A DNA stretch of 32,000 bases from Candidatus Saccharimonadota bacterium. GTDB lineage: Bacteria; Bacillota_I; Bacilli_A; Mycoplasmatales; Hepatoplasmataceae. Positions 2,264 through 31,896 of the stretch are shown here, one piece after another (position 1 is the first letter of the stretch; each line of letters begins with the position of its first letter). Where the stretch lies: assembly GCA_027925325.1 (NCBI GenBank), contig AP027133.1, forward strand, positions 300,001-332,000, given 5' to 3'. Below the pieces are notes generated by a model, which did no database searches, was not told the origin of the DNA, and saw nothing but the letters and a program-made list of their open reading frames with translations. The translations under genes were made by a program, and so were the position numbers.

Positions 2264-3568
2264 TTATATATCAAATATTTTTTTCTCAAATAAAATAATG
2301 ATTCAAATTAATTGTTGATAAATAATAATTTGATAAAAATTAAATGAATTATAATAAAGTAAAATTTTAAAATCCTTAAGTAAAAATAAAAGTGATAAAA
2401 GAGGAATAAATCCATATGTAACTATATCTCAACTAAAAGGAAAAAATATCGAAAAAAATAAGATAAAATAAGTTATTTTTATAATTGGATTTAAAATAAT
2501 GCAGATTAAAGGTGATAATAAATTAATATTTCCTGATCAATTAATTACAAAAGGAAAAGAAATCATAAAAATAAAGATATTGAGAATAACAAATTTATAA
2601 AGATTATTTTTAATTTTTATTTGATGAAAAAATTTATATGCAAAAGAAATTAAAAAAGATAATATTAAACCTGAATTTAAGGCCGAATAAGGATTATAAG
2701 TAAGAAAGAATAATCCAGTAAGAGCAATGGAATTAAAATTTCCTTTTTTAATCTTTTTATTTTGCTTACAAAAATAATCAATTAATGATTTTATTCCTGT
2801 AATGGGAAAGTAAAAAAAATAAAGATAATAGGTAGTTAATAAAAATAAAATTAAATTTTTAATAAGATCCTTCTTAATTATTTTTTTTAATCAAAAATTG
2901 TTTATTTTGATAATTAGAAGAATATGGAATCCAGAAATTATGATTAAAAAACTAATTCCTAAATTTTGAAATAAATTAGCTAGATCTTGATTGTAAATTG
3001 TCTCTTTTTTATATAAAAATAATAATGATAATTGATTATAAATTTGTTTTCTATTTACCAATTTTAAATAAATTAAATTACGAAATGATTGATGGGCATA
3101 TTCTTCTATTTGATAATAATCACTATATCCATAATAAACAGCATGATTTGTTAATAACAAAAAATTAAATGAATTATATTCTTGTTCAATCGGATAATAA
3201 TAGCAATTAAAACTTATTATAGTATGAGGAATTAAATCAGTACAATAATCACTAAAGATAACAAAATAAAAATTTTGTTCTTCTTTTACTAAACAGGATT
3301 TAGAATAACTTTTAATTACTTCCCCTTGATGTTGATAATTTTGATTGGGATTTAAATTACTTAAAAAGTAATTTAAAATAAACAAATGAATAAAAATTAA
3401 AAAGTAAAGCAATATAAAAAAATATCCACCATATTTAAATGTATAGTGGATACCAAAAATAAATGATAAGGATAAGAAAATTATTGTAAATTTTAAAAAA
3501 TATGCATAAAAAAGAATCAATAAATATATCAAAAGATAAAAAAATTTATTTTCATTTTTCCTAAGCAC
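2264..3568 (-). CDS. comEC: ComEC/Rec2-like competence-domain membrane protein (short form, no metallo-beta-lactamase domain)
   Basis: Start is GTG 3568 (no in-frame ATG is available) and stop is TAA 2264-2266, giving 434 aa that are polytopic. ...QNLGISFLIIISGFHILLII... matches the ComEC 'SHLLAISGLH'-type signature. Fragment 2891..3568 continues through TGA codons; I translated the whole 3' half. Confidence 0.65.
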
Positions 3569-4937: not shown

Positions 4938-5651
4938 TTATTTTATTTCCTTTTTAATTTTTTTAGAATCATCTTTCTTTTTACTTTTTTTCTTTTTTTT
5001 ATGTTCTTTATAAAGAATTATTAAATTAGTTTGATGACGATAGACAATTAAAATAAATGCTAATCAGATAATTACAACAGCAGTTACTGTTTGTGATCAA
5101 TCAAATAATGGTCAACCGTCACTAAGATAAGGATTAAAAGTTCCTAATAAAGCAATTGAAAATACCGCTCCAATTGATGAATATGTAACTTTATATTTTG
5201 TTGAATAAAATATTATTAAAAATATAATTCCTCCAATTGCACAAAAAATTCAGTTTATTGCAAGCATAAAACCAAATGTCGTTGCAACTCCTTTTCCACC
5301 CTTGAATTTAAATCAAATTGGCCAAACATGTCCAATGACAACAAAAAAAACAGCAATTGCAATATAATCCTCCACTGCTTTAAAAATATTATCACCACTG
5401 TTATAAGTCAAATTAATTGATAATTCTGTAAAAATTATCGCAACAATAAAAGCTTTTAAAAAATCAAAAAGGAAAACAAGTATGAATGCCTCTTTTCCAA
5501 ATGTTCTTCCGGCATTTGTTGCTCCATAATTTTTCGAACCTACTTTTCCTAGATCAACTTTTTTGTATTTTGAAAGAAGTTGTCCTGCGTTCATTGATCC
5601 AATGAGATAGGCGATGATTGAATATAAGAGTAGTCCTAAAAATATCTCCAT
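4938..5651 (-). CDS. plsY: glycerol-3-phosphate acyltransferase PlsY
   Basis: The sequence ...GSKNYGATNAGR... and ...[21 protein letters not shown]... carry the PlsY signatures. Fragment 5313..5651 extends through TGA codons to TAA 4938-4940 (237 aa), ending in a Lys-rich tail. Confidence 0.85.
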
Positions 5652-5795
5652 TTTGGTAAAATTAATTCAATTATTCATATTATATATGAATATAAATTTA
5701 TATTTAATATCTATGATATTTATTATTAAAATTGTGTAAAATTATACTTATAATATTGCTTTTTTGAAATTAAATTTGATAGAGAGGCATTTTTA

Positions 5796-6680
5796 ATGGT
5801 TAGAACAACGGATAAAACAAAAAAAAAGAATAGAAAAAATTATTGAGATTTAATCGCAATTAATAAAAAATATCGTAATTGAAAAACAATTTTATTAGCA
5901 GAATTGATTGGGACATATTTATTAACACTTTGAATTATTCTTCCTTCATCAGTTGATTTTGATGGAATGAATAATTGATGAGGATATATTTGAACTTTAA
6001 TGATTATGAAGGCATTTTGAGTTGCGGCCTTTATTGTATTAATTGTATATGTTTTAAGATATATATCGGTAAATTTAAATCCCGCTGTTACAATTGCTGA
6101 AATTGCAAAAGGAAATGATAAATTACCGATCGGAATTGCTAAAATAAATGTTCAATTTGTCGGCGGAATTATGGCTGGTTTTACCGGATTAGGATTAGCA
6201 ATTCTAACCGATAATAATACATCAACTCTTGATGCTATTAGTCCGCTTGTAAGATATTATGATTGAGGTAATATCGGAGCAAATGGATGATATGATAATC
6301 CAATAATCTCTAAGAGTTATTATGATTTTAATGGCGGGCAAGCTGGATTTGTTATGTCTACAATGATTCTTGAATTTATCTATACATTTGCATTACTAGC
6401 AAGTATATTTTATTGAGATGATAAAGTAAGTCATAACATGAGACCACTTGTAATAGGGGTTATTGTTTGAATTGCAGTTACATTGGGAGTAAGAACAAAT
6501 AATATTGCTTTAAATCCAGCAAGATTAGTTGGACCAGCAATTGCACAGACAACTTCTGATTATTTAATCTCTCCAATTAATTACACAGATTGAATGTGAG
6601 TATATTTAATTAGTGAATTTGCTGCTGCTGCTGTTTTTGGAATGATTGAGTTAAATAAGCGAAATAAATTAGAAATTTAA
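5796..6680 (+). CDS. glpF: MIP-family channel (glycerol facilitator/aquaporin-like)
   Basis: ATG 5796 follows AGAGAGG and the stop is TAA 6678-6680, giving 294 aa with the frame checked. Two NPA boxes are present: NLNPAVT (6078-6086) and LNPARLVGP (6513-6521). The gene is absent from the ORF track because of frequent TGA=Trp. Confidence 0.85.
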
Positions 6681-6806: not shown

Positions 6807-8396
6807 ATGAAACTAGCGAAAATTTATATTAAAAGATTTAAAAATATAGAGAATTTGGAGATAAATTTTGAGAAATATAAGAATCTAATAAGTATCATCG
6901 GTTTAAATAATATTGGAAAAACAAATATTTTAGAAGCAATATATTTTTTTGAAACTTTAAAAATAAAAAAGCTTCGGAAAAATGAAGAAAAATTACAAAG
7001 TGTGAGTTTTTATTATAAACTAGATCAAGATGATCAAAATATTTTCTTTGATAATTATCTTGAAGAAACAAGATTAATTGATATAAATAATTATAAAAAA
7101 AATGAAAAGTATTTAAATGAAAAACATGAAAAGCAATTTAATAAAACATATAATAAAAGCAAATCAAATTGAGAAAAATTAAGAATTTTTGAAATTAATG
7201 TAAGTTGAGATAATGAGAAAAAAGAATATATTCGATATTTTCCTGAAGAAATTATTAATTCAAAATATTTTTATAATAAAATTTATCAAGAAAATAAATT
7301 TAAGGTTTTTTATTTTGATAAAACCGTAAAGAAAAATTTTCTCGAAAATCAATTTTTACTTAAAAATAAAATCTTTAAACAAATATTGAAAAATATTGGA
7401 TATGAAGATTTTATTGTTAATTTTTATAATTACAATGATATTGAATTAAATGATTGAATTGAAAAAATAGAAAAATCTCTTGCCGTTTTTCTTTTTGATA
7501 ATTGAAATGATAATTTTAGCATAAAATATAGTGTGAAATTGATATTAATAGATCGAAAAGAAGGAAAATTTTCTTTAATAATTAGTAACAAAAATAATAA
7601 AAAAAATAATTTTCAATTAGAAGAAAGTAGCGATGGATTAACTTCAATTATTCTTATGAAATTATCAATCGGAGAAACCTTTTCTAAAAGATTAATTTTG
7701 ATTGATGAACCGAATACTTTTTTACACTCATCTGCACAAATTAAATTATTAAAGTATTTTAAAAAAATAGTAGCAAAAAATGATTGTAAACTAATTTATA
7801 CGACACATTCTGAGCATCTTGTAGATTCTGATGTTCCTGTAATTTATAAAGGAAAATTAAATTGGGAGATAAAAATAATAAATGATATAAAAGAATATCA
7901 AAATATTCAGCTAAAAGTTTTAGCGAATAATCTATTAATTAATAATCCTATTAATTTAATTTTGAAAAAAGAAAAAGATTTTTATAAATTCATTGAATTC
8001 TATAATAAAAAAGAATATAAAATGTCTCTTACTTATATTCATACGTTATTAGAAAAAGAATTAAATATATTCATCTATAAATTAAATTTAAATGATCAAA
8101 TTAGCAAAAAAAATAATATGTATGATAAATTAAAATTAATTTTAGAAAAAATTGAATTTGATAATTTTAAATTGAATTTACCAGCAGAAAAACAATTAAT
8201 TGAAATTATTAAAAATAACTTTAAAAATACACTCTATCTTTCATCTTTTCGAAATAGTGCAAGTTATGCTCATACCAATAGAATAAAAGATATTGATCTT
8301 GAAAATATCATTCCGATTGTTATTTTTACTTATCTTGCAAATATTGAATTTTTGCGAAGATTTACAGAGATTATAATTGAGAGGAAAGAAGAATAA
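6807..8396 (+). CDS. orphan ABC/OLD-type (AAA_15/21-like) ATPase with a C-terminal helical domain bearing an RNx5H (HEPN-like) motif; candidate PrrC-like abortive-infection/defence nuclease
   Basis: ATG 6807 follows AGAGGGAAAG. Track fragments 6807..7172 and 7533..8396 share a frame and are joined by a stretch with four TGA and no TAA/TAG, giving 529 aa. Motifs seen are Walker A IIGLNNIGKTNILEAI, signature-like SSDGLTSIIL, Walker B/D-loop RLILIDEPNTFLH, and H-loop LIYTTHSEHL. The C-terminal ~190 aa contain FRNSASYAHTN (8250-8273). Confidence 0.75.
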
Positions 8397-9321
8397 ATTT
8401 AGCGATAAATAATTGATAATTTGTTGAACTATAGTTTGATTTAAAAAGAATTAGACTTTTAATTAATTTATTGATAATTTCTTCAATATATTGGTAACTA
8501 TAATTATTTGCGTTCTCGATGATTTTTTTTAGTCTATATTTATTTAAATTTAAATCTAAAATTGATGTTTTTTGTTTTAGCTTTAAATTTTGATAATTTT
8601 TAATTAAAAGTAAATATTGTAATTCCTTAATTAAGTATTCTATTATCATGATTGGTGATATATTTTTAGTTTTAAGAGAATTCAAAATTTTACTTAAGTT
8701 AGAAATATTTTTTGCAAGTAACGAATCATATAATTTAAAAATGTTTTCACCTACATAATCATAAATAATTAAATCGAGATCATTTGTAATGCTTTTATCT
8801 TTTAATAAAGAAATTTTTTTTAATTCATTATGTAAGATATCATAATCATATTTTACATATCCAAGTATTTTATTAATTTTATAGGAATCAAAAAAAAGAT
8901 TATCTTGTTTTAATTTTTCTCTTAAAAATTTATTAATTTCCATTTTACTAGGAATTTGTTTATAGATTAAATTAATTTTTTTTGCTTTTAAAAATTCATT
9001 TAAGAAAAGATTATTTTTGCTCAATTTATTTGTTTTAAAAATTAAAAAATTATCATTTTTTGCATTAAATAAAATATTTATTTTTTTGATAAATTTTTTA
9101 TCTAAAATTTTTTTCTCCAAAAATAAACAATTATTGATAATAATAATTTTTTTTTCTCCAAAAATAGAATTACTTAAATATTGATCAAAAGCTCTTGCAA
9201 ATTGATTTTCAGTGTAATCAAAAATAAAAATTTGTTCTCTTTTAAAATTAGCAAATTTAATAATATTTTCAACTTCTTCTTTTTTAATAAAAAAACTCTC
9301 TGATTGAATAATATATTTCAT
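8371..9321 (-). CDS. holA: DNA polymerase III delta subunit (HolA)
   Basis: This is a contiguous 316-aa ORF. Its N-terminal Rossmann-like part is ...EKKIIIINNCLFLEKK... and its C-terminal helical part is ...KLYDSLLAKNISNLSKILNSLKTKNISPIMIIEYLIKELQYLLLIK..., typical of HolA domain III. The assignment is by pattern, not by search. Confidence 0.6.
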   Translation of the reverse strand: MKYIIQSESFFIKKEEVENIIKFANFKREQIFIFDYTENQFARAFDQYLSNSIFGEKKIIIINNCLFLEKKILDKKFIKKINILFNAKNDNFLIFKTNKLSKNNLFLNEFLKAKKINLIYKQIPSKMEINKFLREKLKQDNLFFDSYKINKILGYVKYDYDILHNELKKISLLKDKSITNDLDLIIYDYVGENIFKLYDSLLAKNISNLSKILNSLKTKNISPIMIIEYLIKELQYLLLIKNYQNLKLKQKTSILDLNLNKYRLKKIIENANNYSYQYIEEIINKLIKSLILFKSNYSSTNYQLFIAKFILLSSQL

Positions 9322-12221: not shown

Positions 12222-13769
12222 TTATTTTTTCTTTTTATTTAAAATATCATTAATCTCATTTAATTCTTGTTGAATTGTTCTAATTATTTCATCTTCATCG
12301 TAATTACTATTATTATATTTTTCAATTATTCTCTTATTATTATTTTCTTTTTTTAAATAACCGCTTTCTTCTTTGATCCCATTCTCAATTTTACTTACTT
12401 TTCTTGCTAATTTTTCAATTTCATTTTCAACTGAAAGTAATATATTTTCAATTCGATCATTTTTCTTAACTTCGTGACTACCTAAATTATTTTCCTTTAT
12501 CTGGTATTTTTCTTTATATTTTTCTTCAATCTCTCTTTCCAGTTGCTGGCGTGCAATTTGCTCTGAATTTTGTCTTGCTAATTTTAAATTTTCTTCTTGT
12601 AATTTTTTTAAATTTTCAAACTCATGATCCAATGAATGTTTAAAATAATAATCATCACCATAATACTTTTCTCTTTGATTACGATTTTGTGGATAATAAT
12701 CCTCACGATAATTTTCTCTTTGATATCTTAAACGATTTAATTCAGCATTCTCTCTTTTTAAACGTTCCAATTCATCTTTTTCATGCATCATTTTTAGATA
12801 TCTTAAATAATTTTCTTCTTCATCTAATTTGTCATCATAAAAACGCCGACCTTTTTTAAGAACATTATCTTTTTCTTCTTTTAATTGTTCTAATTCTTTT
12901 TTGATAGATTCACGTTCATTTTTAAGGAAAAATATTAACTCACGTTCTTTTTTTAATTGTTCTAATTCTTCTTTTCTTGATTCTAAATTTTCTATATTAA
13001 CTTCTTTTGTCAATAAAGGCTCTTTATTTTCTTCAGAAAATTTAGCTAATGCTTGCTTTTCTGCTTGTTCTTTTGCAAAATCTAAACGTTTTTTTTCAAT
13101 ATCTAATTTTTCTTGTTCGATTTTTAATTTGGCTTGTTCCAATTTAAATTGTTCAGAATCTTCTTTAATTTCTTCACTCTTTTCTAAATTAGATTCATCA
13201 TTATTTATTTTTTCTATTTTTTCTTCTTTTACTATTTCACTAAGATTTTGATCATTTTCATAAGTTTTTTTTACAGGTAAAAATTCTTTATTAGTCGCAT
13301 CAGCGGTTTGATTAGTCTCATTTTTAACTTCTGATGATTCTTCTTTCATCTCTCTTAACATAATTAATTGTTCAAGTCGAGCTGTTGAATATTGCTCTGG
13401 ATTTTCAATACCCATTTTTTTCGCTTTTATAACAATTTGATCATCGCTTGCGGTATTCTCATCTTCTAATAAAGCTTCTTTTGCTTCTTGTTGCTCAATT
13501 TTTTGTCTTTCTAATTTTTGTTTTTCCTTTTTAGAAAGTTTTTTATTTTTACCGGTAAATTCTGGATTATCTTGATTTTTTATTATTTTTTTTCTTATTT
13601 TACGATTTTTATAAAAAATCACAAACAGCAAAATTAAAAATATTAAAAAAGTAGCAACTAAAATTATTAATGCTATTATTAACGCCATATTATTTTCTCA
13701 TAGCGTATTTCAATCAGCACCAACTTGTGATTGCATTAAATTTTTCAGTTTTGCTATATTTAAATTCAT
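12222..13769 (-). CDS. membrane-anchored (single N-proximal TM) E/K-rich coiled-coil protein
   Basis: The track ORF starts at ATG 13688 (MALIIALIILVATFLIFLILLFVIFY...). Under code 4 the frame stays open 27 codons further to ATG 13769 (MNLNIAKLKNLMQSQVGADWNTLWENN...). Either start is possible. The remaining ~450 aa are charged coiled coil. Confidence 0.6.
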
Positions 13770-20344: not shown

Positions 20345-23038
20345 CTATTTTTTTTCCTTTAAGAATTTAATAATTGTATTTTCAACCATTTTTAAGTTAT
20401 CTATTTTCCCACCGAAAACATATAAATAATTCTTACCGCCACCTTTTAAATTAAATTCATTTAATTTATTTTCTAATTCGATAATTCTGTTTTTAAATTT
20501 ACTTTTTTGTCCTAATACAATAAATAAAGTATATTTTTGTTGATCAAATAAAGCAAGTAAAAGAGTTTTTTCTTCCTTATCTAATAATGCTTTAAAAGCA
20601 ATTTTTGTTAAATTTTTTAAATTTAATTTTTTTAAATTAAGATAAATAATATCTTCTTTTGTTGCTAATATTTCTTTTAATTTTAATTCTAATTGTTGTG
20701 TCTTTATTTTTAAAGTTCAATCAATTAAAACTTGACTTTTATCTATCAAATTATTGAGATCTTGATTAAAATTTTGCTGATCAAATTTTAATTTATTTAA
20801 ATTTGTTTGTATTTTCTTTAAATCAGAAATTTTATCTGCCGTTAAAATTTTTTGATCATTTAAAAATATATCATCTAAATTTTTAATTATAGGATCAGCA
20901 ATTTTAAATCAAATTTCTTCATTTTCTTTTACAAAATATGATTTAATATTATTTTTACCTGTAATCGCTTGTAAACGATAAATACCTGAACCTTTTTTCT
21001 CTAATTTTGCAATTTTTATCGCTTCAATTTCTTTGATATTTGTGACATGAGTTCCACCGCAAAGATCGATTGTCTCATCTGTTAATTTTACAATTCGAAC
21101 AGATTCTTTATAATTTTTTCCTTCAAGATAACCAGGATTTAATTTTAAAGCCTCTTTTAATTTTAAAATTTTAATCTCTGATTGAAAACCTTTTTTAATT
21201 CAATTATTTGCTAAATTTTCAGCAGCATCTAATTCGTTTTTAGTAATCTCTTTTTGATAAGAAAAATCAAATCTTAAAAAAGATGGAGCCACTTTTGAAC
21301 CGACTTGTTTTAAATCTTGCTTTAAAATAATTTCAAGCGCTTTAAAAAGCAAATGAGTTGCAGAATGATTATTTGTTAATTTTTTTCTTCTATCAAGATC
21401 AATTTTTAATTCAACGTGTTGTCCGATTTTAAATGGATTTTCTTCTAGTAAATGAATAATTAAGTCATTTTCTGTTTTAAAAACAGTAAGAACATTGACA
21501 TTATCAATTGTTCCTAGATCTGATTCTTGTCCTCCTGAAGTTGGATAAAAAATGGTCTTATCACAAACAAGATAATTATCCAAAATGGCAATAACTTTCG
21601 CTTTAAAAGGATTTTTATAATCATTGTATCCTAAAAACAATGTCTCTTTTAATTTTGGAAATAATTTTTTTTGTATTTCCATTCCTTTAATAAAATTAGC
21701 ATTTTGCTTTGATTTTAATTTAAATTGATTATTTAATTCTAATAATTTTTGATAATCAATCTCAATTTGATATTTACTAGTTAATTTTTTTATATAACTT
21801 AAATTTAATGGCAATCCATAAGTTTCATGTAATTTAAAAATTTGCTCTGTATTTAACCTATTTTCTTTTTTATATTTTAAAAACATCGCTAATGCTTGTT
21901 TATATGTTTTATTAAATTTTTCACCCTCTTCAATTACTAAATTTAAAATTTTATTTTGATTTAAAATTAGATATGGATATCTTTCTTTTTCATTTTCACA
22001 GATAATTGCGATAATTTTTCGCAAAAAAGTAAAGCTAATTTCTAATTGCTCCGCAGTAATTATCGCTTCTCTTAATAATCTTCGAATTACATATCCTCTT
22101 CCTGTTGCACTAAAATTAGCTTGATCAGCCAACATAAAAGTAATTGCACGTGTAAAGTCTGCTATTTTTTTAAATTCACTATTTACTTCCGCTTGTTTTT
22201 TATTTTCTTGTCAAAGTTTTGTTGGATGATAATCTCAAAGATAATTATAAGAAGAAAATTTTTCTAATTCTTTAATGATTGGTTTAAAAATGTCTGTCTC
22301 AAAAGTAGTGGGAGTATCTTCAAAAATCATCGTTAATCTTTCAAGTCCTGCTCCCGTATCGATATTTTTTTGTGGTAATTCTTGATAATTACCTTTACCA
22401 TCATTACTAAATTCTGAAAAAACAATATTTCAAATCTCTATAAAACGATCATTTTCGATATCATCTTTAATCAATATTGATGCATCTCTTTTATCATATT
22501 CTTTTCCGCGATCATAAAATATTTCAGTAGAAGGTCCACACGGTCCTTTGCCGATATCTCAAAAATTTGTTTCTCTTCCCATTTTAAAAAGATGATTTTT
22601 TGCTATTCCTTTTTTAATTCAAAAATCATATGCATTTTGATCATCATTAAAAACAGTAATATAAATCTTTTCTTTTGTAAATGCAAAGTATTCCTTTGCA
22701 AATAATAATTCATAAGCATAATCAATCGCTTCTTTTTTAAAATAATCGCCGATTGAAAAATTGCCAAGCATTTCAAAAAGGGTTTGATGACGAGCAGTTA
22801 TTCCGATCTTATCAATGTCGCCCGTTCTAATTGATCTTTGATAATTTACAAGTTTTTTGCTTGGTGGTTTTTTTTCTGCACTAAAATAATTTTTTAAAGT
22901 TGCAACACCAGAATTTATTCATAATAATGAATTATCATTTTTAGGGATTAATGAAGAAGAAGAAATTAGTAGATGATTTTTTTTAGTAAAAAAATCAATT
23001 CATAGCTTTCTGATCTGAATTGAATTTAATTTTTTCAT
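20345..23038 (-). CDS. alaS: alanine--tRNA ligase
   Basis: The gene runs from ATG 23038 to TAG 20345-20347 (897 aa), and every codon was checked for TAA/TAG. Motifs seen are ...[16 protein letters not shown]..., ...[19 protein letters not shown]..., ...[21 protein letters not shown]..., ...[14 protein letters not shown]... and ...HSATHLL... Only 21200..22135 appears in the track. Confidence 0.95.
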
Positions 23039-23110
23039 AACAAAAAAATTATATCTAAATAATTTCAATTATTTAAATTAAGTAAACAATCAGTAATTAA
23101 ATTTATTATT

Positions 23111-24148
23111 TTATTTATTTTTTGTTTTTCTTGAAATATAAATTCCTAATAAACCAAATAAAATTAAATAAATATAAGGAACAAAAATATAAGCCGATCA
23201 TAACCAACAACTAAAAGAAAACATTTTATATCTAAATAATACTCATGTGCTAGGATCATTTGGATTTATGATTAATTTATCATTATTAGATGGATCAATT
23301 CCAGGAAGATAAAGTGATGTGGTTCGATAAAAATTAACAAATACATCATATTGACTTCATTGAATGATTCAATAATATGGATTTAACATATGAATAAATT
23401 GAAAAATATTAAAATCATAAAAAAAGGTCTTATCAACTCTTGCATTACGATCAAAATAAGGTTTAAAAGTTAAAACCTGACTTTCTGAATCATAAGAATA
23501 ATAATAAATAGCATCAGCTGAATCTGAATATGGTTTTGAAAAAACAGCACGAAAGACAAAAGTAGCAGAAAAAAGCAAAATTATCACAAATACAAAAAGA
23601 ATAACGATAAAATAATTCCTTAAATTTTTACTAAAGGATTGAATTAAAAAAGCAATTACAAAAGATTCAAAAAAGATAATTAAAACATAATAAATTAAAA
23701 TTCCTCATCGAAGTTGATTAAAATCTTTAATTTGATAATAAATTATATTTTTATTTTGCAAATCTCAAAAAGCGACAATATTTAATGCGTGAAATATATA
23801 AAGATATGTAAGAGCGATAAAAAAAGAAAAAAAAGCAAATAAAAGTAAATTTATAAAAATAGGAAAATAAATTTGAAATTTGTTGGTAGTTTTTTGTTTT
23901 ATTAAAAAATAAAAATGAGATCTTCTAATATTAAAAAATATCAAGCCATAAAATAAAAAAGTATTAAAAATAATTGAATAAGCGATCGTACTATCAATTG
24001 ATAAAACAGTCGGCGTTTGCAGAAAAAAAGCAAGATCAAAAAATAAAGGAGTAAAGAATAAAGTTATATAAAATCAGAGAGATTTTATACTTTTTTTAAA
24101 ATAAAAATTTATCAAATAAAAAGTCTTAAAATTGTATCTATTCCCCAT
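23111..24148 (-). CDS. tandem-array 6-TM membrane protein, copy A (345 aa; divergent subtype)
   Basis: ATG 24148 (alternative 24160) to TAA 23111-23113, with the frame checked. It contains track fragment 23369..23587. It has the shared blocks ...YYYSYDSESQVLTFKPYFDRN..., MLNPYYW, DPSTWV and FSFSCWLW. Confidence 0.75.
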
Positions 24149-24173
24149 TTTTCAACTCATTTACTAAAATATT

Positions 24174-25223
24174 TTAATCATTATATTTTTTTTTCTTTTT
24201 TACAATCAAAGCCCCTAAAAAACTATAAGTAAAGATAAAAATATATGGAACAAAAATATAGGATGCTCATAATCAATTTGTAAATGAGAACATTACATAA
24301 TCATATTTTACTCATGTACTAGGGTCATTTTGATCTATTACAATTTCATTAAGTCCCGGAAGTGTAAGTGATGTTGTTCGATAACTATCGATAAAAATAT
24401 CATATTGCCCTCATACCGTAATATAGTAAAAAGGATTAAACATTTGTATAAATTTATGAATAGAAAAATCATTGAAAAAGTATTGATTTTCTGTCTTTGG
24501 AGCACTTGGATCAAAATAAGGTTTAAAAGTTAAAATTTGCGTTTCTGGATTATAACTATATAAAAGATCATTTGAATGATTAGAATAAGGAGTAATAAAA
24601 ATTGTAAAAAGCAAGGTTCCTGAAAAAGTTACTATCAAGACAAAAATAAAAACGGTAATTAAAATATAAAAACTAAGATTTCTACTTAAAGTTTGAATTA
24701 AAAATGCTAACGAAATCGAAATAATAAAAATGACAATTATATAATAAATTAATAATCCTCAGCGATAATCAGAAATTTTAGATAATTGATAATGATATTC
24801 AGCATTATTTCAATTTTGAACGGCGATTCAATTAATTTTATCAAATAAAAAAATAAAAAATAATGAAAAAACAAATGTAAGAAAAGTGATAATGATTAAA
24901 TTAAAAAATATTGGTAGATGCGAAATAAATCTATGATTATTAAATTTTTGTTTAATTAAAAGATAAAAATGTGATTTACGAAAATTAAAAAATAATACAC
25001 CATAAAAAATAATAATATTAAAAATTAAAGCAAATACAATCGTACTATCAACAGTTAAAAATGCTGGCAATTGTGTTAGCAAAAATAGACAAAAAAAGAA
25101 AGGAATTAAAATTATTCCAAGATAAAATCAATATGATGTTACTAATTTTTTAAAGTAAAATCTCGTTAATTCAAATAAATATCGGTTTTCAAAAAAACCT
25201 ACATTCTTATTTCTTATTCGCAT
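24174..25223 (-). CDS. tandem-array 6-TM membrane protein, copy B (349 aa)
   Basis: ATG 25223 to TAA 24174-24176, with the frame checked. It joins fragments 24411..24638 and 24828..25082 through TGA codons. Confidence 0.8.
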
Positions 25224-25249
25224 TTATTTTAAAACCTTATAATATGATA

Positions 25250-26290
25250 TTATCTTTTTTTCTTTTTTTTCGCAATAAAAATTGCTAAAAAAGTATAAAA
25301 GATAATAAAAAGATAAGGGGCAAAAATATAAGATGCTCATAATCAATTTGTAAATGAAAACATTACATAATCGTATAATACCCATGTGCTAGGATCGTTT
25401 TGATCTATTACGATTTCAGGAAGACCCGGAAGTGAAAGTGATTTTGTTGCATAACTCTCAGTAAAAATATCATATTGCCCTCATTCTGTAATATAGTAAA
25501 AAGGATTAAACATTTTCATAAATGTAAAAAAAGAGAAATTGTTCAGAAAACGTAAATTAGGATTATTACTAGGATCTAAATAAGGTTTAAAAGTTAAAAC
25601 TTGTGTTTCTGGATTATAACTATATAAAAGATCCTCTGAATTATTAGAGCGAGGAGAAACAAAAGTTGAAAAATCAAACGCCGTTCCCGAAAAAAGCATA
25701 ATCAAAATGAAAATAAAAATCATTAATAAAAAATAAAAATTAAGATTTTTACTTAATATTTGAATCAAAAAAGCTACCGAAATAGAAACTATAAAAATGA
25801 TAGAAATATAATAAATTAATAATCCTCAGCGATAATCAGAAATTTTAGATAATTGATAATAATGTCCTTCAGTATGAGTTCAATCTCTAGCTGCAATTCA
25901 ATTAAGTTGATCAAATAAAAAAATAAAAAATAATGAAAAAGAAAAAGTAATAAATGCAATGATAACCAAATTAAAAAAAATTGGAAGATGAATCATAAAT
26001 TTATGATTATCAAATTTTTGTTCAATTGAAAAATAAAAGTGTGATTTACGAAAATTAAAAAATAAGACACCATAAAAAATAATAGTATTAAAAATTAAAG
26101 CAAAACCGATTGTACTACCAACAGTTAAAAATGCTGGTAATTGTGTTAGTAAAAATAAACAGAAAAAAAGAGGAATTAAAATTATTCCAAGATAAAATCA
26201 ATATGATGTTACTAGTTTTTTAAAATAAAAAAATGTTAATTCAAGCAAATATTGATTTCCAAAAAAACTTAAATTCTTATTTCTTTTCAC
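25250..26290 (-). CDS. tandem-array 6-TM membrane protein, copy C (346 aa; GTG start)
   Basis: GTG 26290 to TAA 25250-25252, with the frame checked. It contains fragment 25481..25768. The ATG homologous to the B/D starts (26292) is out of frame. Confidence 0.7.
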
Positions 26291-26317
26291 ATTTATTTCA
26301 AGCCTTATAATATGATA

Positions 26318-27364
26318 TTATCTTTTTTTCTTTTTCTTAGCAATAAAAATCGCTAAAAAAGTGTAGGAGAAAATAAAAAGATAGGGAACAAAAATATAAG
26401 ATGCTCATAATCAATTTGTAAATGAGAACATCACATAATCATATAATACTCATGTGCTAGGGTCGTTTTGATCTATTATGATTTCATCAATCCCTGGAAG
26501 AGAAAGTGATGTTATCCGATAACTATCGATAAAAATATCATATTGCCCTCATACTGTAATATAGTAAAAGGGATTAAACATTTGCATAAATTTAAAAAAA
26601 GAAAAATCATAAAAAAACCTTCAAGTAGGAAAAAAGGTTGTATTAGGGTCAAAATAAGGTTTAAAAGTTAAAACATGTGTTTCTGGATTATAACTATATA
26701 AAAGATCATTTGAATTATTAGAATTAGGGAAAGTAAAAATTGTAAAGTTAAGTAAGGTTCCCGAAAACATCATGATTAAAATGAAAATACAAACCGCTAA
26801 TAAAATATAAGAATTTAGCTTTTTACTTAAAACTTGAATTAAAAAAGCTAACGAAATAGAAATTATAAAAATGATAGAAATATAATAAATTAATAATCCT
26901 CAACGATAATCAGAAATCTTAGCAATTTGATAATAATTATCAGGATTACTTCAATTCTGAACCGCAATTCAATTAAGTTGATCAAATAAAAAGATAAAAA
27001 ATAACGAAAAAAGAAATGTAAGAAAAGCAATGATAACTAAATTAAAAAAAATTGGCAGATGTGCCATAAATTTATTATTATCAAATTTTTGTTCAATTGA
27101 AAAATAAAAATGTGATTTCCGAAAATTAAAAAATAAAATTCCATAAAAAATAAAAACATTAAAAATTAAAGCAAATCCAATTGTACTATCAACAGTTAAA
27201 AAAGCTGGCAATTGTGTTAGTAAAAATAAACAAAAAAAGAAAGGAACTAAAATTATTCCAAGGTAAAATTGATACGACGTAATAATTTTTTTAAAATAAA
27301 ATAACATTAATTCAAAACAAATATTGATTTGAAAAAAATTCCCATTTTTATTTTTTATTTGCAT
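26318..27364 (-). CDS. tandem-array 6-TM membrane protein, copy D (348 aa)
   Basis: ATG 27364 to TAA 26318-26320, with the frame checked. It extends fragment 26969..27364 through TGA codons. Confidence 0.8.
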
Positions 27365-27390
27365 TTATCTTAAAACCTTATAATATGATA

Positions 27391-28434
27391 TTATCTTTTT
27401 TTCTTTTTTTTCGCAATAAAAATCCCTAAGAAACCATAAAAGAAAATGAAAATATAAGGAACAAAAATATAAGATGATCATAATCAATTTGTAAACGAAA
27501 ACATCACATAGCTATATCTTACTCATGTACTAGGATCACTTTCATTTATTATAATTGGATCAATTCCGGGAAGAGAAAGTGATGTTGTTCGATAAAAATC
27601 AATAAAAATATCAAATTGTCCTCATGCCGAGATGTAATAATAAGGATTAAACATCTCAATGAAACGACCGAAGGTAAAATCTTGAAAAAATCTTTTATTA
27701 AAAAAATCAGGGTCGTTTCGATCAAAATATGGTTTAAAGGTTAAAATTTGTTCATTTTGATCATAATTATATAATAATTCATTACTATTATCTTTATATC
27801 TTGGTGTATCAAATGCCGATGTTATTCCAAATGTCCCAGAAAAAAGAATTATGATTATTATTACAAATAGTGAAAATAAAAGAAATGAATTAAAATTATT
27901 ACTTAAATTTTGCAATAAAAAAGCCAATGTAAAAGTAATCATAAAAATAATAAGCAAATAATAAATTAGTAACCCTCAGCGAAAATCAGCAATATCTTTA
28001 ATTTGATAAAAATAATTTTCACTATAATTTCATGTTTCCAAAAATAATCAATCACTATTTACAAAAATATAAAAAAATAAAATTGCAAAAAAAGTTGTAA
28101 AAATAACAACAATTAATAAATTAAGAAAAATTGGAAAATAAATAAATATCTTCTTATAATTAAATTTTTGATTTATCAAAAGATAAAAATGCGATTTATG
28201 AAAAGAGAAAAATAAAATTCCATAAAACAATAAAATATTAAAAATTAGCGAAAAGGAAATCACACTATCAACGACCAAAAATGTCGGTGTCTGTGTAAGA
28301 AAGGCGAGACTAAATAAAAAAGGAACGATAATTATTAAAAAATAAAATCAAACCGAAAAGATCATTTTCCTGAAAAAAAACAAGAAAAGTCCTACAAAGT
28401 TATGATATAAATCTACATTCTTTTGTTCTTTCAT
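27391..28434 (-). CDS. tandem-array 6-TM membrane protein, copy E (347 aa; divergent subtype)
   Basis: ATG 28434 to TAA 27391-27393, with the frame checked. It joins fragments 27622..27957 and 28048..28278. It starts 19 nt after the nrdF stop. Confidence 0.8.
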
Positions 28435-28453: not shown

Positions 28454-29437
28454 TTAAAAATCTTCAAAATCTTCATCATTTAATTCTTCATGGACAATCG
28501 GTTTAATATATCCATTCCCTTTTGTTGAAAAAAAATCATGTGTTTTAGTTTCTGTATCTAATCCATTTAAAATGATCGGATTTATATCTTTATCATTGAT
28601 ATTAAAATAAGGATCAAAACCAAAATTCATTAAAGCTTTATCAGCATTATATTTAATAAATTTTACCACATCATCAGTAAGATTAACTTTATCATAAAGT
28701 TCTTTTGTATAATTAATTTCATTTTGATAAAGATCTAACATTAAATCATAAACTTTTTTACTTAACTCTGCTTTTTTTTCGATTGTAAATTTTTTAAAAA
28801 TATTTTGCGCAATTAAGCCCACAAAAGTTCCATGAACCGATTCATCTCTAATAATAAGATTGATAATTTCTCCTGATCCGACTAACTTTCCCTGTCCTGA
28901 AAATCATAATGGATAAAAAAAGCCAGAATAAAATAAAAATGTCTCTAAAAGAACCGAAGTTGTAAGTGCAAGATAAAGATCTTCTTCGTTATTTATCTTT
29001 CGATAATAAGAATCAACTTTTTTTACCTTGTATTGCAAATATTTATTATCTTGAACTCAATCAAAAAGCTCATTAATTCTCTCTGAATTTGAAAGAGTTG
29101 AGAAAATTGTAGAATAAGATTTTGCATGCATCTGCTCCATTGCTGCCATAAAAGCAAAGACCGCCTTTACATGCAGATCATCAATTTTATCAAGGATAAG
29201 TGGCATCCCCACTCCTCCTTGTTCAGTATCAAGTAAAGTAAGACCGGCAAGAATTTTTTCATAAGTATCTTTTTGCTCTTGATTTAATTTATCTCAATGC
29301 TTTCGATCCTCAACTAATGAAATCTCTTCATCAACTCAAAATTGTCTAATATTTTGATCTCAAAACAATTTAACATAATTATTTTCAATTTTATTTCAAT
29401 TTATCGCTTTGATAATTTGTTCTTTTTTATTAAGCAT
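28454..29437 (-). CDS. nrdF: class Ib ribonucleotide reductase beta subunit
   Basis: ATG 29437 follows GAGGAG and overlaps the nrdE stop as ATGCTTAA. The product is 327 aa. Metal ligands are ...[11 protein letters not shown]... and ...[10 protein letters not shown]..., with an acidic C-terminus ...[11 protein letters not shown]. Fragment 28454..28822 was extended. Confidence 0.9.
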
Positions 29438-31538
29438 AACAAGATTCACACTCCTCAATTTTTAAATTTTTTGTTCTTGTATAATATAAAGCTTTTAAAC
29501 CTTTCTTATTTGCATAAATATATAATTTTGCAAGATCTTTTGTTGAAATTGAACTATCAACATAAAGAATTGTTGATATTCCTTGATCAACATGTTCTTG
29601 GATTGATGCAACCATATCAATAATCTTTTTTTGATCCATATTATATGCATTTTTATAAAATAAAACATTATCTTTTCTAAGATAAGGCATCGGATAATAT
29701 GTTATTGAATTTGCATATGTTCTTGCTTCAATAAGTGAAGTAATAGGCATCACAGAAGGAGTAGCGTTTGCGATATAAGCAGTTGATTGATTAGGAGCAA
29801 TTGCTAAACGATAACCATGATAAAGTCCATATTTTTTTACATTAACAGCCAATTCTTTTCAATCACTAATAGAGGGCAATTTGATTCCTAAAAAAAGTTT
29901 TTTTACTAATTCTTCTTTTGGTAAAAAATCATTTATAAAATATTTTTTAAAATAATTGCCATTTGCATATTCAGATTTATCAAAATCAATAAATTTTTGC
30001 TGTTTTCTTTTTGCAATTTCCATTGATTTTTTAATTGAATAAAAATTAACCGCACTAAAAAAAACACTAGCAAATTCACGAGCTGTAGCCGATTCATAAT
30101 TAATTCGATTTTTGGCAAGATAACCATGTAAATTTAAAGCCCCTAGACCGATTGCGTGTAATTCTTTATTAGCTTTATTAATTCCTGGAGCAAATTTAAG
30201 TTCTGATAAATCAGTAACAGCTGTTAATGCCTCAACGGCGACAGATACTGTTTTTTCAATATCTTTATTTTCCATAACTTTTGCAATATTTAAAGAACCC
30301 AAATTACATAATACATCACGTTTAATTAAATCTTTTTCATCATAATTATTAATAATTGAAGTTTCTTGTAATTGAAATATCTCTGTACAAAGATTACTCA
30401 TTTTAATCTGTCCAATATTTTTTAATGGATGAACTTTATTTGCATTATCTTTATACATAATATAAGGATAACCAGATTCAAGTTGAGTTTTTGCGATCTT
30501 TAATAATAATTTACGAGCAGAAATATAACTTTTAGCAATTCTTTGGTCATCTACTAATTTTTGATAATCTTTATTGATATCAAGATCATCCAAATCTTTG
30601 TGATAATATTTCTTTACATCATAAGGAGAAAAGGTTGCCATCATTTTGTTTTCTTTTGCAAGTTCAAACATTTTATCACTAACAATAAGTCCTAAAGAAA
30701 GAAATTGAATTCGATGTTTTTCGTCAGCATTTATCTTTTTTGTATCTAAAAATTCTAATACATCTTTGTGAAAAACATTTAAATAAGCAGCACCAGCGCC
30801 ATTTCGTTGATCTAATTTATTTGCAAACGAAAATCCATCTTCTAATAATTTTAAAATTGGCATTATTCCTGCTGTGATATTTCTTACCCCCCTTAAAGAA
30901 GAACCTCTTGATCTAATTTTAGAAAGATTAACAGCAACTCCACCGCCAATTTTTGAAAGATGTAATGAAGTTCCAAGAACATAATTAATTGAATTTAATG
31001 TATCGTCCATCTCAAGTAAAAAGCATGAAATCATTTCGCCTGAATTTATTCTGCCTGCATCTTGCATTGTAGGTGTTGCAGGTTGATATCTTCCATTTAT
31101 AATTTCTGTAGCAATATCTTTTGCAATATGATAATTACCACGACCAAGATATAAAGATAAAATTAAAACACGATCAAAATAATCTTCATAATTTATATTT
31201 TTATCGACAGATTTTAAAACATATTCATTTAAAAATTTTTTTGCAGCCATATATGAATCAAATAGATGATTTGTTGATAATAAAAAATCATACAAATCAT
31301 CTATTTGCTGTTTAGAATATCATTTTAAAACTATCGGATTATAAAGTTTAAGATCTGAAAGTTCTTTTATTTTTTCATAACCTTTTTTATCAAATTGATA
31401 ATTTTTATAAAAATTAGCAAGAAAGATATCTCGTGCAATTTTATCTTTATCTAATTGATAAAAATCTGTCTTATCTTTCAATTTGATTTGATTATTTAAT
31501 TTTATATCGATTAAATGCTCATGATAATTAATTTCCAT
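29430..31538 (-). CDS. nrdE: class Ib ribonucleotide reductase alpha subunit
   Basis: Three fragments (29430, 29859, 31320) share one frame and are joined by TGA, giving 702 aa. Motifs seen are ...ISCFLLEMDDTLNSI..., ...SNLCTEI... and a C-terminal ...CESCYA redox pair. Confidence 0.95.
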
Positions 31539-31896
31539 TACTTAAAAACTCCAAAATATTTTTTCTGCATTCTTCAATTTGATTATTTGTTCCCGCTAAT
31601 TCAATACTAGCGAAATATTTGACATTATATTCTTTTGAAATAGTTTTTGCTGCCTTACAATAACTCTGTCCTCAATTTCTATTTCCCGATCCAATTACTC
31701 CGATCATTTTTTCACTATTATTTTTTAAAAAAGACTTAACCTCTGGTTGAACTTGGCCAAAGCCAATAGAAGAGGCGATTAAAATATAATTATCATTGAT
31801 TAATAAATCATTTTTAATTTCTTCTATTGGAAATAAATCTAATTTTTCAGCAATTTTTTTTGTATTTCCGGTTAAAGAAAAGAACACAAATTTCAT
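31528..31896 (-). CDS. nrdI: flavodoxin-like NrdI
   Basis: MKFVFFSLTGNTKKIAEKL...VIGSGNRNWGQSYCKAAK... is NrdI-like. Fragment 31672..31896 reads through TGA to TAA 31528-31530, overlapping the nrdE start by 11 nt (122 aa). Confidence 0.85.

What the first reader, a model, noticed from the sequence alone, without database searches (positions are those of the whole stretch)
23369..27957. Divergence among the paralogs is concentrated in the two predicted outside loops
The TM segments are nearly identical among B, C and D, for example LGIIL(I/V)P(F/L)FFCLFLLTQLPAFLTV(D/G)STI. Loop 1 differs: NWIAVQNWNNAEYHYQLSKISDYRW / NWIAARDWTHTEGHYYQLSKISDYRW / NWIAVQNWSNPDNYYQIAKISDYRW. Two patches of loop 2 also differ: TLLFTIFITPYSNHSND / TAFDFSTFVSPRSNNSED / TLLNFTIFTFPNSNNSND, and DPSAPKTENQYFFNDFSIHKFIQ / DPSNNPNLRFLNNFSFFTFMK / DPNTTFFPTWRFFYDFSFFKFMQ. 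These variable patches sit between strictly conserved anchor blocks (LLYSYNPET, LTFKPY, MFNPFYY). With a positive-inside topology (basic N-terminus, basic loop NFRKSH, poly-Lys C-terminus) both variable loops face outward. That is the pattern expected for diversifying selection on a surface-exposed ligand, phage or antibody interface rather than for neutral decay.
Basis: partly seen in the sequence, partly recalled or inferred. Interest (0 to 1): 0.65.

Follow-up and report, generated by a model that had tools for sequence, protein, structure and literature searches.

The report
Tandem ABC-2-like membrane protein paralogs

Summary
The quoted sequences are real. Read with genetic code 4 (TGA=Trp), window 23111-28434 (minus strand) holds five intact tandem paralogs of 346-349 aa between nrdIEF and alaS. 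Both variable loops are predicted to be extracellular, by the positive-inside rule and by an AlphaFold model (pLDDT 85) whose 50 best PDB matches are all type V/ABC-2 transporter membrane domains.

"Concentrated in the two outside loops" overstates the pattern. Among the three close copies, variable columns make up 26% of TM helices, 48% of loop 1, 33% of loop 2 and 43% of cytoplasmic segments. The cytoplasmic N-terminal tail and TM5 vary as much as the outside patches.

dN/dS is below 1 in every partition (patches 0.33-0.55, TM 0.09, cytoplasmic tail 0.57). A site-model signal for omega>1 appears only in the three-copy set. It disappears when 11 codons that cannot be aligned, next to an indel, are removed.

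One point survives. The tip of the TM5-TM6 loop ("patch 2b") is a divergence hotspot among within-genome paralogs in three genomes, but not between orthologs.

Best reading: co-transcribed ABC-2-like permease paralogs with a conserved core and relaxed or sub-functionalising surface loops. Interest is modest.

The parts
27391..28434 (-). Paralog A (347 aa), first copy after nrdF. Orthologous to the first copy in other Hepatoplasma genomes (65-71% identity).
26318..27364 (-). Belongs to the young B/C/D clade.
25250..26290 (-).
   Evidence: P0002
24174..25223 (-). This is the protein modelled by AlphaFold (P0003; pLDDT 85.3, pTM 0.86).
23111..24160 (-). Paralog E (349 aa), last copy before alaS. 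Its ortholog is L007_1 (78% identity).
24759..24833 (-). Loop 1 in D (residues 131-155): the extracellular TM3-TM4 loop, a beta-hairpin in the model. Equivalent stretches are 25826-25903 in C and 26900-26974 in B.
24567..24617 (-). Patch 2a in D (residues 203-219): end of TM5 and start of the TM5-TM6 ectodomain, low pLDDT. Equivalent stretches are 25631-25684 in C and 26705-26758 in B.
24444..24512 (-). Patch 2b in D (residues 238-260): the most divergent stretch, carrying an indel, and the lowest pLDDT inside the ectodomain (57). Equivalent stretches are 25514-25576 in C and 26582-26650 in B.
24516..24566 (-). Conserved anchor LLYSYNPETQILTFKPY in D, lying between patches 2a and 2b (two beta-strands in the model).
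24963..24986 (-). NFRKSHFY in D: the near-invariant start of the cytoplasmic TM2-TM3 loop, at the position of the NBD-coupling helix in type V ABC transporters. That role is inferred. Equivalent stretches are 26033-26056 in C and 27104-27127 in B.
25152..25223 (-). Cytoplasmic N-terminal tail of D (residues 1-24). It is as variable as the outside patches, which contradicts an 'outside only' pattern.
27365..27390 (-). A-to-B spacer (26 nt, TATCATATTATAAGGTTTTAAGATAA). It is near-identical to the B-to-C spacer (26291-26317) and the C-to-D spacer (25224-25249) and contains an AAGG RBS-like motif. No terminator is present, so co-transcription is inferred.
28454..31896 (-). nrdI-nrdE-nrdF, upstream and co-directional. 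This is the conserved left border of the array in all Hepatoplasma genomes examined.
20345..23068 (-). alaS, downstream and co-directional. This is the conserved right border of the array.

Best explanation
The five genes are co-transcribed paralogs of a Hepatoplasma-specific, previously unannotated family with the type V (ABC-2/ABCG-like) ABC-transporter membrane-domain fold.

Architecture: an N-terminal cytoplasmic tail and amphipathic helix, six TM helices, a short conserved cytoplasmic TM2-TM3 loop (FFNFRKSHFY) at the position of the NBD-coupling helix, a short extracellular TM3-TM4 hairpin (loop 1), and a folded extracellular domain of about 110 aa between TM5 and TM6 (loop 2).

No ATPase gene is adjacent. 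The inferred mode of action is that the paralogs dimerise, as homo- or heterodimers, and borrow an ATPase encoded elsewhere. The likeliest partner is the fused double-NBD protein of the ABC/engB operon, whose own membrane subunits are distant relatives of this family.

The array arose by lineage-specific tandem duplication, giving 3, 4 or 5 copies in different Hepatoplasma genomes. Purifying selection holds the helical core, the coupling loop and the ectodomain scaffold. Flexible, low-confidence surface segments on BOTH faces of the membrane (N-terminal tail, tip of loop 1, end of TM5 with patch 2a, patch 2b) evolve 4-6 times faster through substitutions and small indels. After duplication the ectodomain tip (patch 2b) diverges particularly quickly, most plausibly through relaxed constraint or sub-functionalisation of substrate, partner or dimer specificity.

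Shown here: gene structure, topology rule, fold class, synteny, copy-number variation, rate heterogeneity, omega<1. Inferred: ATPase partnership, dimerisation, co-transcription, the reason for hotspot divergence.
For: Five intact ORFs under code 4.

Fold and family:
- Positive-inside rule holds in all 17 copies.
- AlphaFold model with a 26-sequence alignment: pLDDT 85.3, pTM 0.86.
- All 50 best Foldseek PDB matches are type V ABC membrane domains (ABCG5/G8, ABCH, ABCG25, NosY, TarG, KpsM). Probability is 1.00 for the top hits, and TM-score normalised to stand-alone TMD chains is 0.52-0.57.
- Weak Pfam ABC2_membrane hits in distant relatives (E=9e-4; E=0.046).
- Distant relatives found by exhaustive profile search lie in operons of a fused 2xABC_tran ATPase, two or three paralogous membrane proteins, and engB. 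One such operon is in Hepatoplasma itself.

Array evolution:
- Synteny nrdF-[3/4/5 copies]-alaS.
- Middle copies cluster by genome.
- Near-identical 26-27-nt spacers, no terminators, promoter-like hits at chance level, no slippery repeats.

Selection:
- M0 omega 0.063.
- Shared-dS partition omega: TM 0.045, inside 0.104, loop 1 0.109, loop 2 0.060.
- No omega>1 class with 13 or 5 sequences.
- Strain pair L002/L005: 27 synonymous and 5 nonsynonymous differences.
- dS is similar in TM helices and loops, so TM identity reflects constraint and not conversion.
- The lowest-pLDDT blocks coincide with the variable segments.
- Patch 2b is a hotspot in three paralog sets (OR 9.3, 6.7, 5.4) but not in A or E orthologs.
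- The family's A-type orthologs (65-71% identity) diverge about as fast as alaS, ruvX and udk (68-75%).
Against: - No array member reaches any Pfam or NCBIfam threshold, and profile searches of PDB sequences find nothing. The ABC-2 assignment therefore rests on a predicted structure with modest Foldseek scores (E>=0.04, TMq 0.41-0.46) plus the context of distant relatives.
- No ATPase gene lies within about 10 kb of the array in any genome examined, so coupling to an ABC ATPase is inference only.
- B/C/D alone do give a significant site-model signal (M8 vs M8a P=0.0017). A residual trend remains after trimming (P=0.04-0.09).
- My simulation shows low power for short patches, so some positive selection at the loop-2 tip cannot be excluded.
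- The codon-ML code is my own, and synonymous sites are near saturation in this 22-25% GC genome (tree length 16.5 substitutions per codon).
Confidence: 0.6

Rival explanations
1. The exposed tips of loops 1 and 2 form an interface with a phage receptor-binding protein or a host factor and are under diversifying selection. The array supplies several variants expressed side by side.
For: - Both loops are extracellular.
- Patches are significantly enriched for replacements among B/C/D.
- The patch 2b hotspot recurs in three within-genome paralog sets but not between orthologs.
- Patch omega is 4-6 times the TM value in B/C/D, but only 1.6-2.5 times in A-type orthologs.
- The B/C/D site model finds 7-8% of sites at omega about 4 (M8 vs M8a P=0.0017).
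- 4 of 5 nonsynonymous strain differences fall in loop 2.
- Hepatoplasmataceae carry CRISPR-Cas9 and restriction-modification systems, so phages are a real pressure (PMC10928387).
Against: - Omega is below 1 in every patch, even though the patches were chosen after the fact.
- The signal vanishes when 11 unalignable, indel-adjacent codons are removed.
- There is no signal with 5 or 13 sequences.
- dS is raised together with dN in patch 2b.
- The cytoplasmic N-terminal tail is just as variable.
- Recombination mosaicism among B/C/D (runs test P=0.03) is a known cause of false positives in site models.
- The family is not faster than neighbouring housekeeping genes.
- Isopods make no antibodies (general knowledge).
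Confidence: 0.17
2. Concerted evolution. Gene conversion among tandem copies keeps most of the gene homogenised within each genome. The patches are older sequence islands that escape conversion because they can no longer pair. The contrast between conserved blocks and variable patches would then reflect conversion tracts and not selection on loops.
For: - Middle copies cluster by genome and not by position.
- Phylogenetic signal among B/C/D is mosaic: C+D are favoured in the first 90 codons, and B+C in columns 90-119 and at the 3' end (runs test P=0.03; longest C+D run P=0.002).
- pS in patch 2b (0.58 in B/C/D, 0.84 in L001_2/3) exceeds the gene-wide values (0.33, 0.40).
- The 3' tails and spacers of A, B and C are near-identical.
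Against: - dS in TM regions (0.39-0.56) is not lower than in the loops as a whole (0.36-0.41), so the conserved blocks are not recently homogenised.
- B/C/D still differ at about 16-17% of nucleotides, and the longest identical runs are only 38-55 nt.
- No patch 'alleles' are shared across genomes.
- dS in the 3' third of A against B/C/D is not significantly reduced.
Confidence: 0.13
3. The proteins have the ABC-2 fold but work without an ATPase, for example as a channel, scaffold, receptor or attachment component. The array would then be a dosage or diversity expansion unrelated to transport.
For: No ATPase gene lies next to the array in any of the genomes examined. The array sits in a housekeeping operon context. 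No curated ABC2_membrane match exists for array members.
Against: The TM2-TM3 cytoplasmic loop at the coupling-helix position is among the best-conserved segments. It is conserved into the distant, ATPase-linked relatives (YGxxFFNxRxSxxY in the A3 consensus). The relatives are consistently operon-linked to a double-NBD ATPase.
Confidence: 0.1

Closest known systems
Type V ABC transporter membrane domains (Pfam ABC2_membrane PF01061; ABCG5/G8, ABCG2, ABCH, NosY, TarG, KpsM/Wzm)
   Same: Six TM helices with both termini inside; an N-terminal amphipathic helix before TM1; a short cytoplasmic TM2-TM3 loop at the coupling-helix position; and the largest extracellular loop between TM5 and TM6. All 50 best structural matches of the model belong to this class.
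   Different: No significant sequence match for array members. The TM5-TM6 loop is expanded into a mixed alpha/beta domain of about 110 aa. There are five tandem copies and no adjacent ATPase gene, whereas bacterial ABC-2 permeases normally sit beside their NBD gene (general knowledge).
Unnamed Mollicute operon: fused double-NBD ABC ATPase (772-836 aa), two to four paralogous 6-TM proteins, and engB (loci L008, L009, L011)
   Same: Its membrane subunits are the only detectable sequence relatives outside the array family (E from 1e-19 to 1e-3). They have the same length class and TM layout, and also occur as tandem paralogs. Hepatoplasma carries one such operon.
   Different: Only 20-25% identical and ATPase-linked. 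The array family is a separate Hepatoplasma-restricted clade at a different, conserved locus (nrdF-alaS).
Mollicute variable surface protein multigene families (e.g. Vsa, Vsp, Vlp, MgPa repeats). This comparison rests on general knowledge.
   Same: Tandem paralogs in a Mollicute, with divergence in exposed segments and copy number varying between strains.
   Different: Those are lipoproteins or adhesins with switching machinery (invertible promoters, slippery repeats, silent cassettes). Here the proteins are polytopic 6-TM proteins with a strongly constrained core. There are no repeats, no invertible elements, 13-27-nt spacers, and no robust omega>1.
YhgE/Pip 'phage infection protein' family: ABC-2-related membrane proteins with a large ectodomain that serve as phage receptors. 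This comparison rests on general knowledge.
   Same: An ABC-2-like membrane core combined with a large extracellular domain. It shows how such a protein could act as a phage interface.
   Different: In Pip the ectodomain lies between TM1 and TM2, not between TM5 and TM6. No NCBIfam hit of any kind was found for the array proteins apart from one chance-level match.

Membership tests
Type V / ABC-2 ABC-transporter membrane domain (PF01061 and relatives) | Sequence match to a curated ABC-2 membrane model above threshold | tested here: not met
   Array proteins have no Pfam or NCBIfam hit. Only sub-threshold ABC2_membrane hits exist, in 2 of 26 distant relatives (E=9e-4) and in one operon subunit (E=0.046).
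Type V / ABC-2 ABC-transporter membrane domain (PF01061 and relatives) | Six TM helices, N- and C-termini cytoplasmic, largest external loop between TM5 and TM6 | tested here: met
   Hydropathy plus the positive-inside rule in all 17 copies; helices in the AlphaFold model.
Type V / ABC-2 ABC-transporter membrane domain (PF01061 and relatives) | Three-dimensional fold superimposable on solved type V membrane domains | tested here: met
   The predicted model (pLDDT 85) has type V ABC TMDs as all 50 top Foldseek PDB hits. Probability is 1.00 for the best, and TM-score is 0.52-0.57 when normalised to stand-alone TMD chains (NosY, TarG, KpsM). The match is nonetheless weak: E>=0.04 and TMq 0.41-0.46. 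It is a predicted structure, not an experimental one.
Type V / ABC-2 ABC-transporter membrane domain (PF01061 and relatives) | Cognate ABC ATPase gene in the same operon | tested here: not met
   No ABC_tran gene lies within about 10 kb of the array in L001, L002 or L005, and none was found among the window ORFs examined. Distant relatives do sit next to a double-NBD ATPase.
Type V / ABC-2 ABC-transporter membrane domain (PF01061 and relatives) | Conserved cytoplasmic coupling helix that contacts the NBD | tested here: inconclusive
   The TM2-TM3 loop start FFNFR(K/R)SHFY is near-invariant in the family and partly conserved in distant relatives, and it forms a short helix in the model. Contact with an NBD was not modelled.
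Type V / ABC-2 ABC-transporter membrane domain (PF01061 and relatives) | ATP-dependent transport of a substrate | not testable with these tools
   Needs biochemistry.
Phase- or antigen-variable surface protein multigene family of Mollicutes | Switching machinery: slippery repeats, invertible promoters or silent donor cassettes | tested here: not met
   No notable tandem repeats. Promoter-like hits are at chance level (73 against 74 expected) and there is no terminator between copies. Spacers are 13-27 nt. All five copies are full-length ORFs.
Phase- or antigen-variable surface protein multigene family of Mollicutes | Positive selection (omega>1) on exposed segments | tested here: not met
   Patch omega is 0.33-0.55. 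M2a equals M1a with 13 sequences. The B/C/D-only signal depends on 11 unalignable codons. Power is limited.
YhgE/Pip phage-infection protein family | Match to pip_yhgE models and a large ectodomain between TM1 and TM2 | tested here: not met
   No such NCBIfam hit. The ectodomain lies between TM5 and TM6.
Known anti-phage defence or phage protein families | Match to PADLOC or PHROGs models | tested here: not met
   No hits at E<=0.1.

The most novel reading that the evidence does not exclude
The array is a set of interchangeable 'plug-in' membrane subunits that share one ATPase encoded elsewhere in a ~600-kb genome. The tip of their TM5-TM6 ectodomain (patches 2a/2b, with the loop 1 hairpin) is a true hypervariable interface, diversified after each duplication under pressure from phages or isopod host factors. 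This would be a polytopic-membrane-protein counterpart of Mollicute variable surface antigens that works by simultaneous expression of variants, not by switching.
Probability: 0.12. Interest if true: 0.6.

Novelty: new member of a known kind. Interest (0 to 1): 0.3.

Why it matters
Hepatoplasma genomes hold only about 550-600 genes, yet they keep 3-5 tandem copies of this unannotated membrane protein at a fixed locus, so the family probably matters for life on the isopod gut epithelium. Recognising it as ABC-2/type V permease-like gives a first functional handle on proteins labelled 'hypothetical' in every database. It also raises a concrete question: do orphan permease paralogs share one ATPase? 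The selection result is a cautionary example. An apparent 'variable outside loops' pattern largely reflects generic flexibility of surface segments on both faces of the membrane, together with an alignment artefact beside an indel. If the paralog-specific hotspot at the ectodomain tip turns out to be adaptive, it would mark a candidate host- or phage-contact site in an uncultured symbiont.

Tried and rejected
1. Table-11 ORF listing fragments the genes. Re-translation with code 4 was required.
2. The first genome-contig scan failed because its peptide patterns contained Trp, which this genome encodes mostly as TGA. The W-free rescan recovered only the Ps genome plus a Spirochaetia false positive: a soluble 587-aa protein with no HMM hit.
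3. The first AlphaFold run, with 11 close sequences, was unusable (pLDDT 51). Adding distant relatives fixed it.
4. Profile searches of PDB sequences, PADLOC and PHROGs found nothing.
5. A second large-database search with the deep profile added only one new unnamed relative (P0068) and no names.
6. Gene conversion as the cause of TM identity was rejected, because dS in TM helices is not lower than in loops.
7. Conversion of the 3' third of A by B/C/D was rejected, because pS is not significantly reduced.
8. Compensated frameshift as the origin of patch 2b: alternative frames show no similarity.
9. Phase-variation machinery: none found.
10. Literature: the Hepatoplasmataceae genome paper describes giant tandem Ig-like ORFs and says the ABC transporter substrates could not be determined, but does not describe this family. 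A search for tandem ABC-2 permease paralogs in Mollicutes gave nothing relevant.
11. NG86 and ML omega differ about five-fold (0.3 against 0.06) because of extreme AT bias and saturation. Both are reported, and both are below 1.

Full report
**What is there.** The window has 18-29% GC, and table-11 ORFs break at TGA. Translated with code 4, the minus strand between 23111 and 28434 holds five intact, equally sized tandem genes:
- A 27391-28434
- B 26318-27364
- C 25250-26290
- D 24174-25223
- E 23111-24160

They lie directly downstream of nrdI-nrdE-nrdF and upstream of alaS, all in the same direction. B/C/D are 74-77% identical in protein and 83-84% in DNA. A and E are 46-56% identical to the others.

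**Relatives and locus.** Close homologs occur only in Hepatoplasma and are all labelled 'hypothetical protein'. The locus is syntenic but copy number varies. There are 3 copies in strain Ps (L001), 4 in strain Av (L002) and in AP027132 (L005), and 5 in the window. Short-read contigs from other samples end inside the array. The first copy (A-type) and the last copy (E-type) have cross-species orthologs (65-71% and 78% identity). The middle copies cluster by genome, which indicates lineage-specific duplication or concerted evolution.

Spacers are 13-27 nt. The A-to-B, B-to-C and C-to-D spacers are near-identical and carry an AAGG motif. Promoter-like hits are at chance level (73 against 74 expected), no terminator separates the copies, and no slippery repeats occur. 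Co-transcription is therefore likely, and there is no switching apparatus.

**What the protein is.** Pfam, NCBIfam, PADLOC, PHROGs and PDB sequence searches give nothing for array members.

An exhaustive profile search found 50 relatives, only three of them close. The distant ones (E from 1e-19 to 1e-4) also lack Pfam domains. Several were checked for context. Three lie in Mollicute operons made of a fused double-NBD ABC ATPase (772-836 aa), two to four membrane proteins of about 310-480 aa, and engB. One of these operons is in Hepatoplasma itself. The other membrane proteins of those operons also match the family HMM weakly. Two distant members and one operon subunit give sub-threshold ABC2_membrane hits.

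With the 26-sequence alignment, AlphaFold gives a confident model of copy D (pLDDT 85.3, pTM 0.86). All 50 best Foldseek matches in the PDB are type V ABC-transporter membrane domains: ABCG5/G8, ABCH-9C, ABCG25/16/1/2, Pdr5/Cdr1, NosY, TarG, KpsM. Scores are modest (E>=0.04; TM 0.41-0.46 on the query, 0.52-0.57 on stand-alone TMD chains), but the verdict is unanimous.

The layout matches that fold: N-terminal tail and amphipathic helix, TM1, short outer loop, TM2, short conserved inner loop (FFNFRKSHFY, at the coupling-helix position), TM3, loop 1 (28 aa hairpin), TM4, 6-aa inner loop, TM5, loop 2 (about 111 aa, mixed alpha/beta), TM6, poly-Lys tail.

**Topology.** K+R makes up 21-29% of the proposed inner segments and 4-9% of the outer ones in all 17 copies. 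Type V ABC structures place the TM3-4 and TM5-6 loops outside (general knowledge of that fold, together).

**Is divergence concentrated in the two outside loops?** Only partly. Variable columns among B/C/D:

| Region | Variable columns |
|---|---|
| TM helices | 35/136 (26%) |
| Cytoplasmic segments | 29/67 (43%) |
| Loop 1 | 14/29 (48%) |
| Loop 2 | 39/119 (33%) |

Loops 1+2 against the rest give OR 1.28, P=0.31. TM1-4 are 14-21% variable, but TM5 is 50% and TM6 is 35%.

At finer scale the replacements cluster into about five hotspots (max-window permutation P=0.024): N-terminal cytoplasmic tail, loop 1 core, inner loop 2/TM5, patch 2a and patch 2b. So is the cytoplasmic tail (OR 4.2, P=0.003). 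Across the whole family, sites assigned to the neutral class under M1a number 12/28 in the N-terminal tail, 12/140 in the outside loops and 4/136 in TM helices. The lowest-pLDDT blocks of the model (residues 1-10, 241-250, 211-220, 201-210, 91-100, 131-140) coincide with these hotspots. They therefore look like flexible surface segments on both faces.

**Selection.** Nei-Gojobori omega is 0.2 in TM helices and 0.3-0.5 elsewhere. dS is similar in TM helices (0.39-0.56) and in loops (0.36-0.51 in all but one loop-1 comparison based on ~15 synonymous sites), so TM identity reflects constraint and not recent conversion.

I wrote codon-ML models (code 4, F3x4). A simulation check shows good recovery of omega=0.1, but noisy estimates for 50-codon partitions with omega=1.5. 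Results:
- M0 omega is 0.063.
- With shared dS, omega is 0.045 (TM), 0.104 (inside), 0.109 (loop 1) and 0.060 (loop 2). Inside exceeds the outside loops pooled (0.104 vs 0.069; adding the inside/outside split improves the fit, P=3e-7).
- M2a is no better than M1a with 13 sequences: 9% of sites are neutral and none have omega>1.
- In the young 5-sequence clade, M8 vs M8a gives P=0.21.
- For B/C/D alone, M2a vs M1a gives P=0.037 and M8 vs M8a P=0.0017, with top sites at columns 251-257.

That stretch (patch 2b core) cannot be aligned among B, C and D even at the nucleotide level. It contains a two-codon indel and is flanked by near-identical DNA. Removing its 11 columns abolishes the signal (M2a vs M1a P=0.71; M8 vs M8a P=0.09). 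In patch 2b, pS is also raised (0.58 against 0.33 gene-wide), giving omega 0.37 by Nei-Gojobori.

Omega=1 is rejected for loop 1 core and patch 2a (P<0.001) and marginally for patch 2b (P=0.049). Outside patches and the cytoplasmic tail do not differ (P=0.28). Two near-identical strains (L002/L005) differ by 27 synonymous and 5 nonsynonymous changes, four of the latter in loop 2. The A-type orthologs (65-71% identity) diverge about as much as the neighbouring alaS, ruvX and udk (68-75%). Modest mosaicism among B/C/D (runs test P=0.03) is a further caveat for site models.

**What survives.** Patch 2b core is a hotspot in all three within-genome sets of middle paralogs (OR 9.3, 6.7, 5.4). It is not a hotspot between A-type or E-type orthologs (OR 0.47 and 2.6, not significant). 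In A orthologs it reads RNDPxFxxKRFF across species. Patch omega relative to TM is 4-6 times in B/C/D against 1.6-2.5 times in A orthologs. Post-duplication acceleration at the ectodomain tip is therefore real. Whether it is relaxation, sub-functionalisation or weak positive selection cannot be settled with three to five sequences and an indel-ridden stretch.

**Conclusion.** The finding is a correct description of real variable patches in extracellular loops of a tandem paralog family. The claim that divergence is concentrated there, and that it indicates diversifying selection, is not upheld. The most likely biology is a lineage-specifically expanded, co-transcribed set of ABC-2/type V permease-like subunits. 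They have a strongly constrained core and loosely constrained surface segments on both sides of the membrane. They probably work with an ATPase encoded elsewhere, which is inferred. The family is a divergent, unannotated member of a known kind, and interest is modest.

Noticed in passing
window 1-1566 (+): C-terminal part of a protein with RCC1 repeats (PF00415, E=1e-25) that runs off the window start. This is a eukaryote-like repeat protein in a Mollicute symbiont and a possible host-interaction factor.
   Followed up: partly
window 6807-8396 (+): A 529-aa AAA_15/AAA_21 ATPase (E=1e-22), of the OLD/AbiEii-like class often found in defence systems. No partner gene was examined.
   Followed up: no
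window 27365-27426, 26291-26353, 25224-25285 (3' tails of A, B, C plus spacers): The last ~36 nt of genes A, B and C and the 26-27-nt spacers after them are near-identical, although A is only about 68% nt-identical to B/C/D overall. This could be a duplication-unit junction, a short conversion tract or a translational-coupling element.
   Followed up: partly
L003, L006, L007, L013 (other Hepatoplasma samples): Short-read assemblies repeatedly end inside this array, so public MAGs probably under-count its copies.
   Followed up: no
L011 4879-12646 (Hepatoplasma ABC/engB operon): A fused double-NBD ATPase of 836 aa with long K/E-rich coiled-coil-like inserts is flanked by four distantly related 6-TM proteins (370, 446, 478, 400 aa). 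One source annotates the 446-aa protein as 'Cation transport ATPase'. That label does not fit a protein with no ATPase domain match: no Pfam or NCBIfam hit at all.
   Followed up: partly
window 12222-13769 (-): A 515-aa protein with one N-terminal TM segment and a very K/E-rich, coiled-coil-like body lies just upstream of ftsZ and has no Pfam hit.
   Followed up: no
window 2264-3568 (-), 4938-5678 (-), 5796-6680 (+), 8371-9321 (-): Routine annotations: ComEC-like competence protein, PlsY, a MIP/GlpF channel, and DNA polymerase III delta subunit.
   Followed up: no
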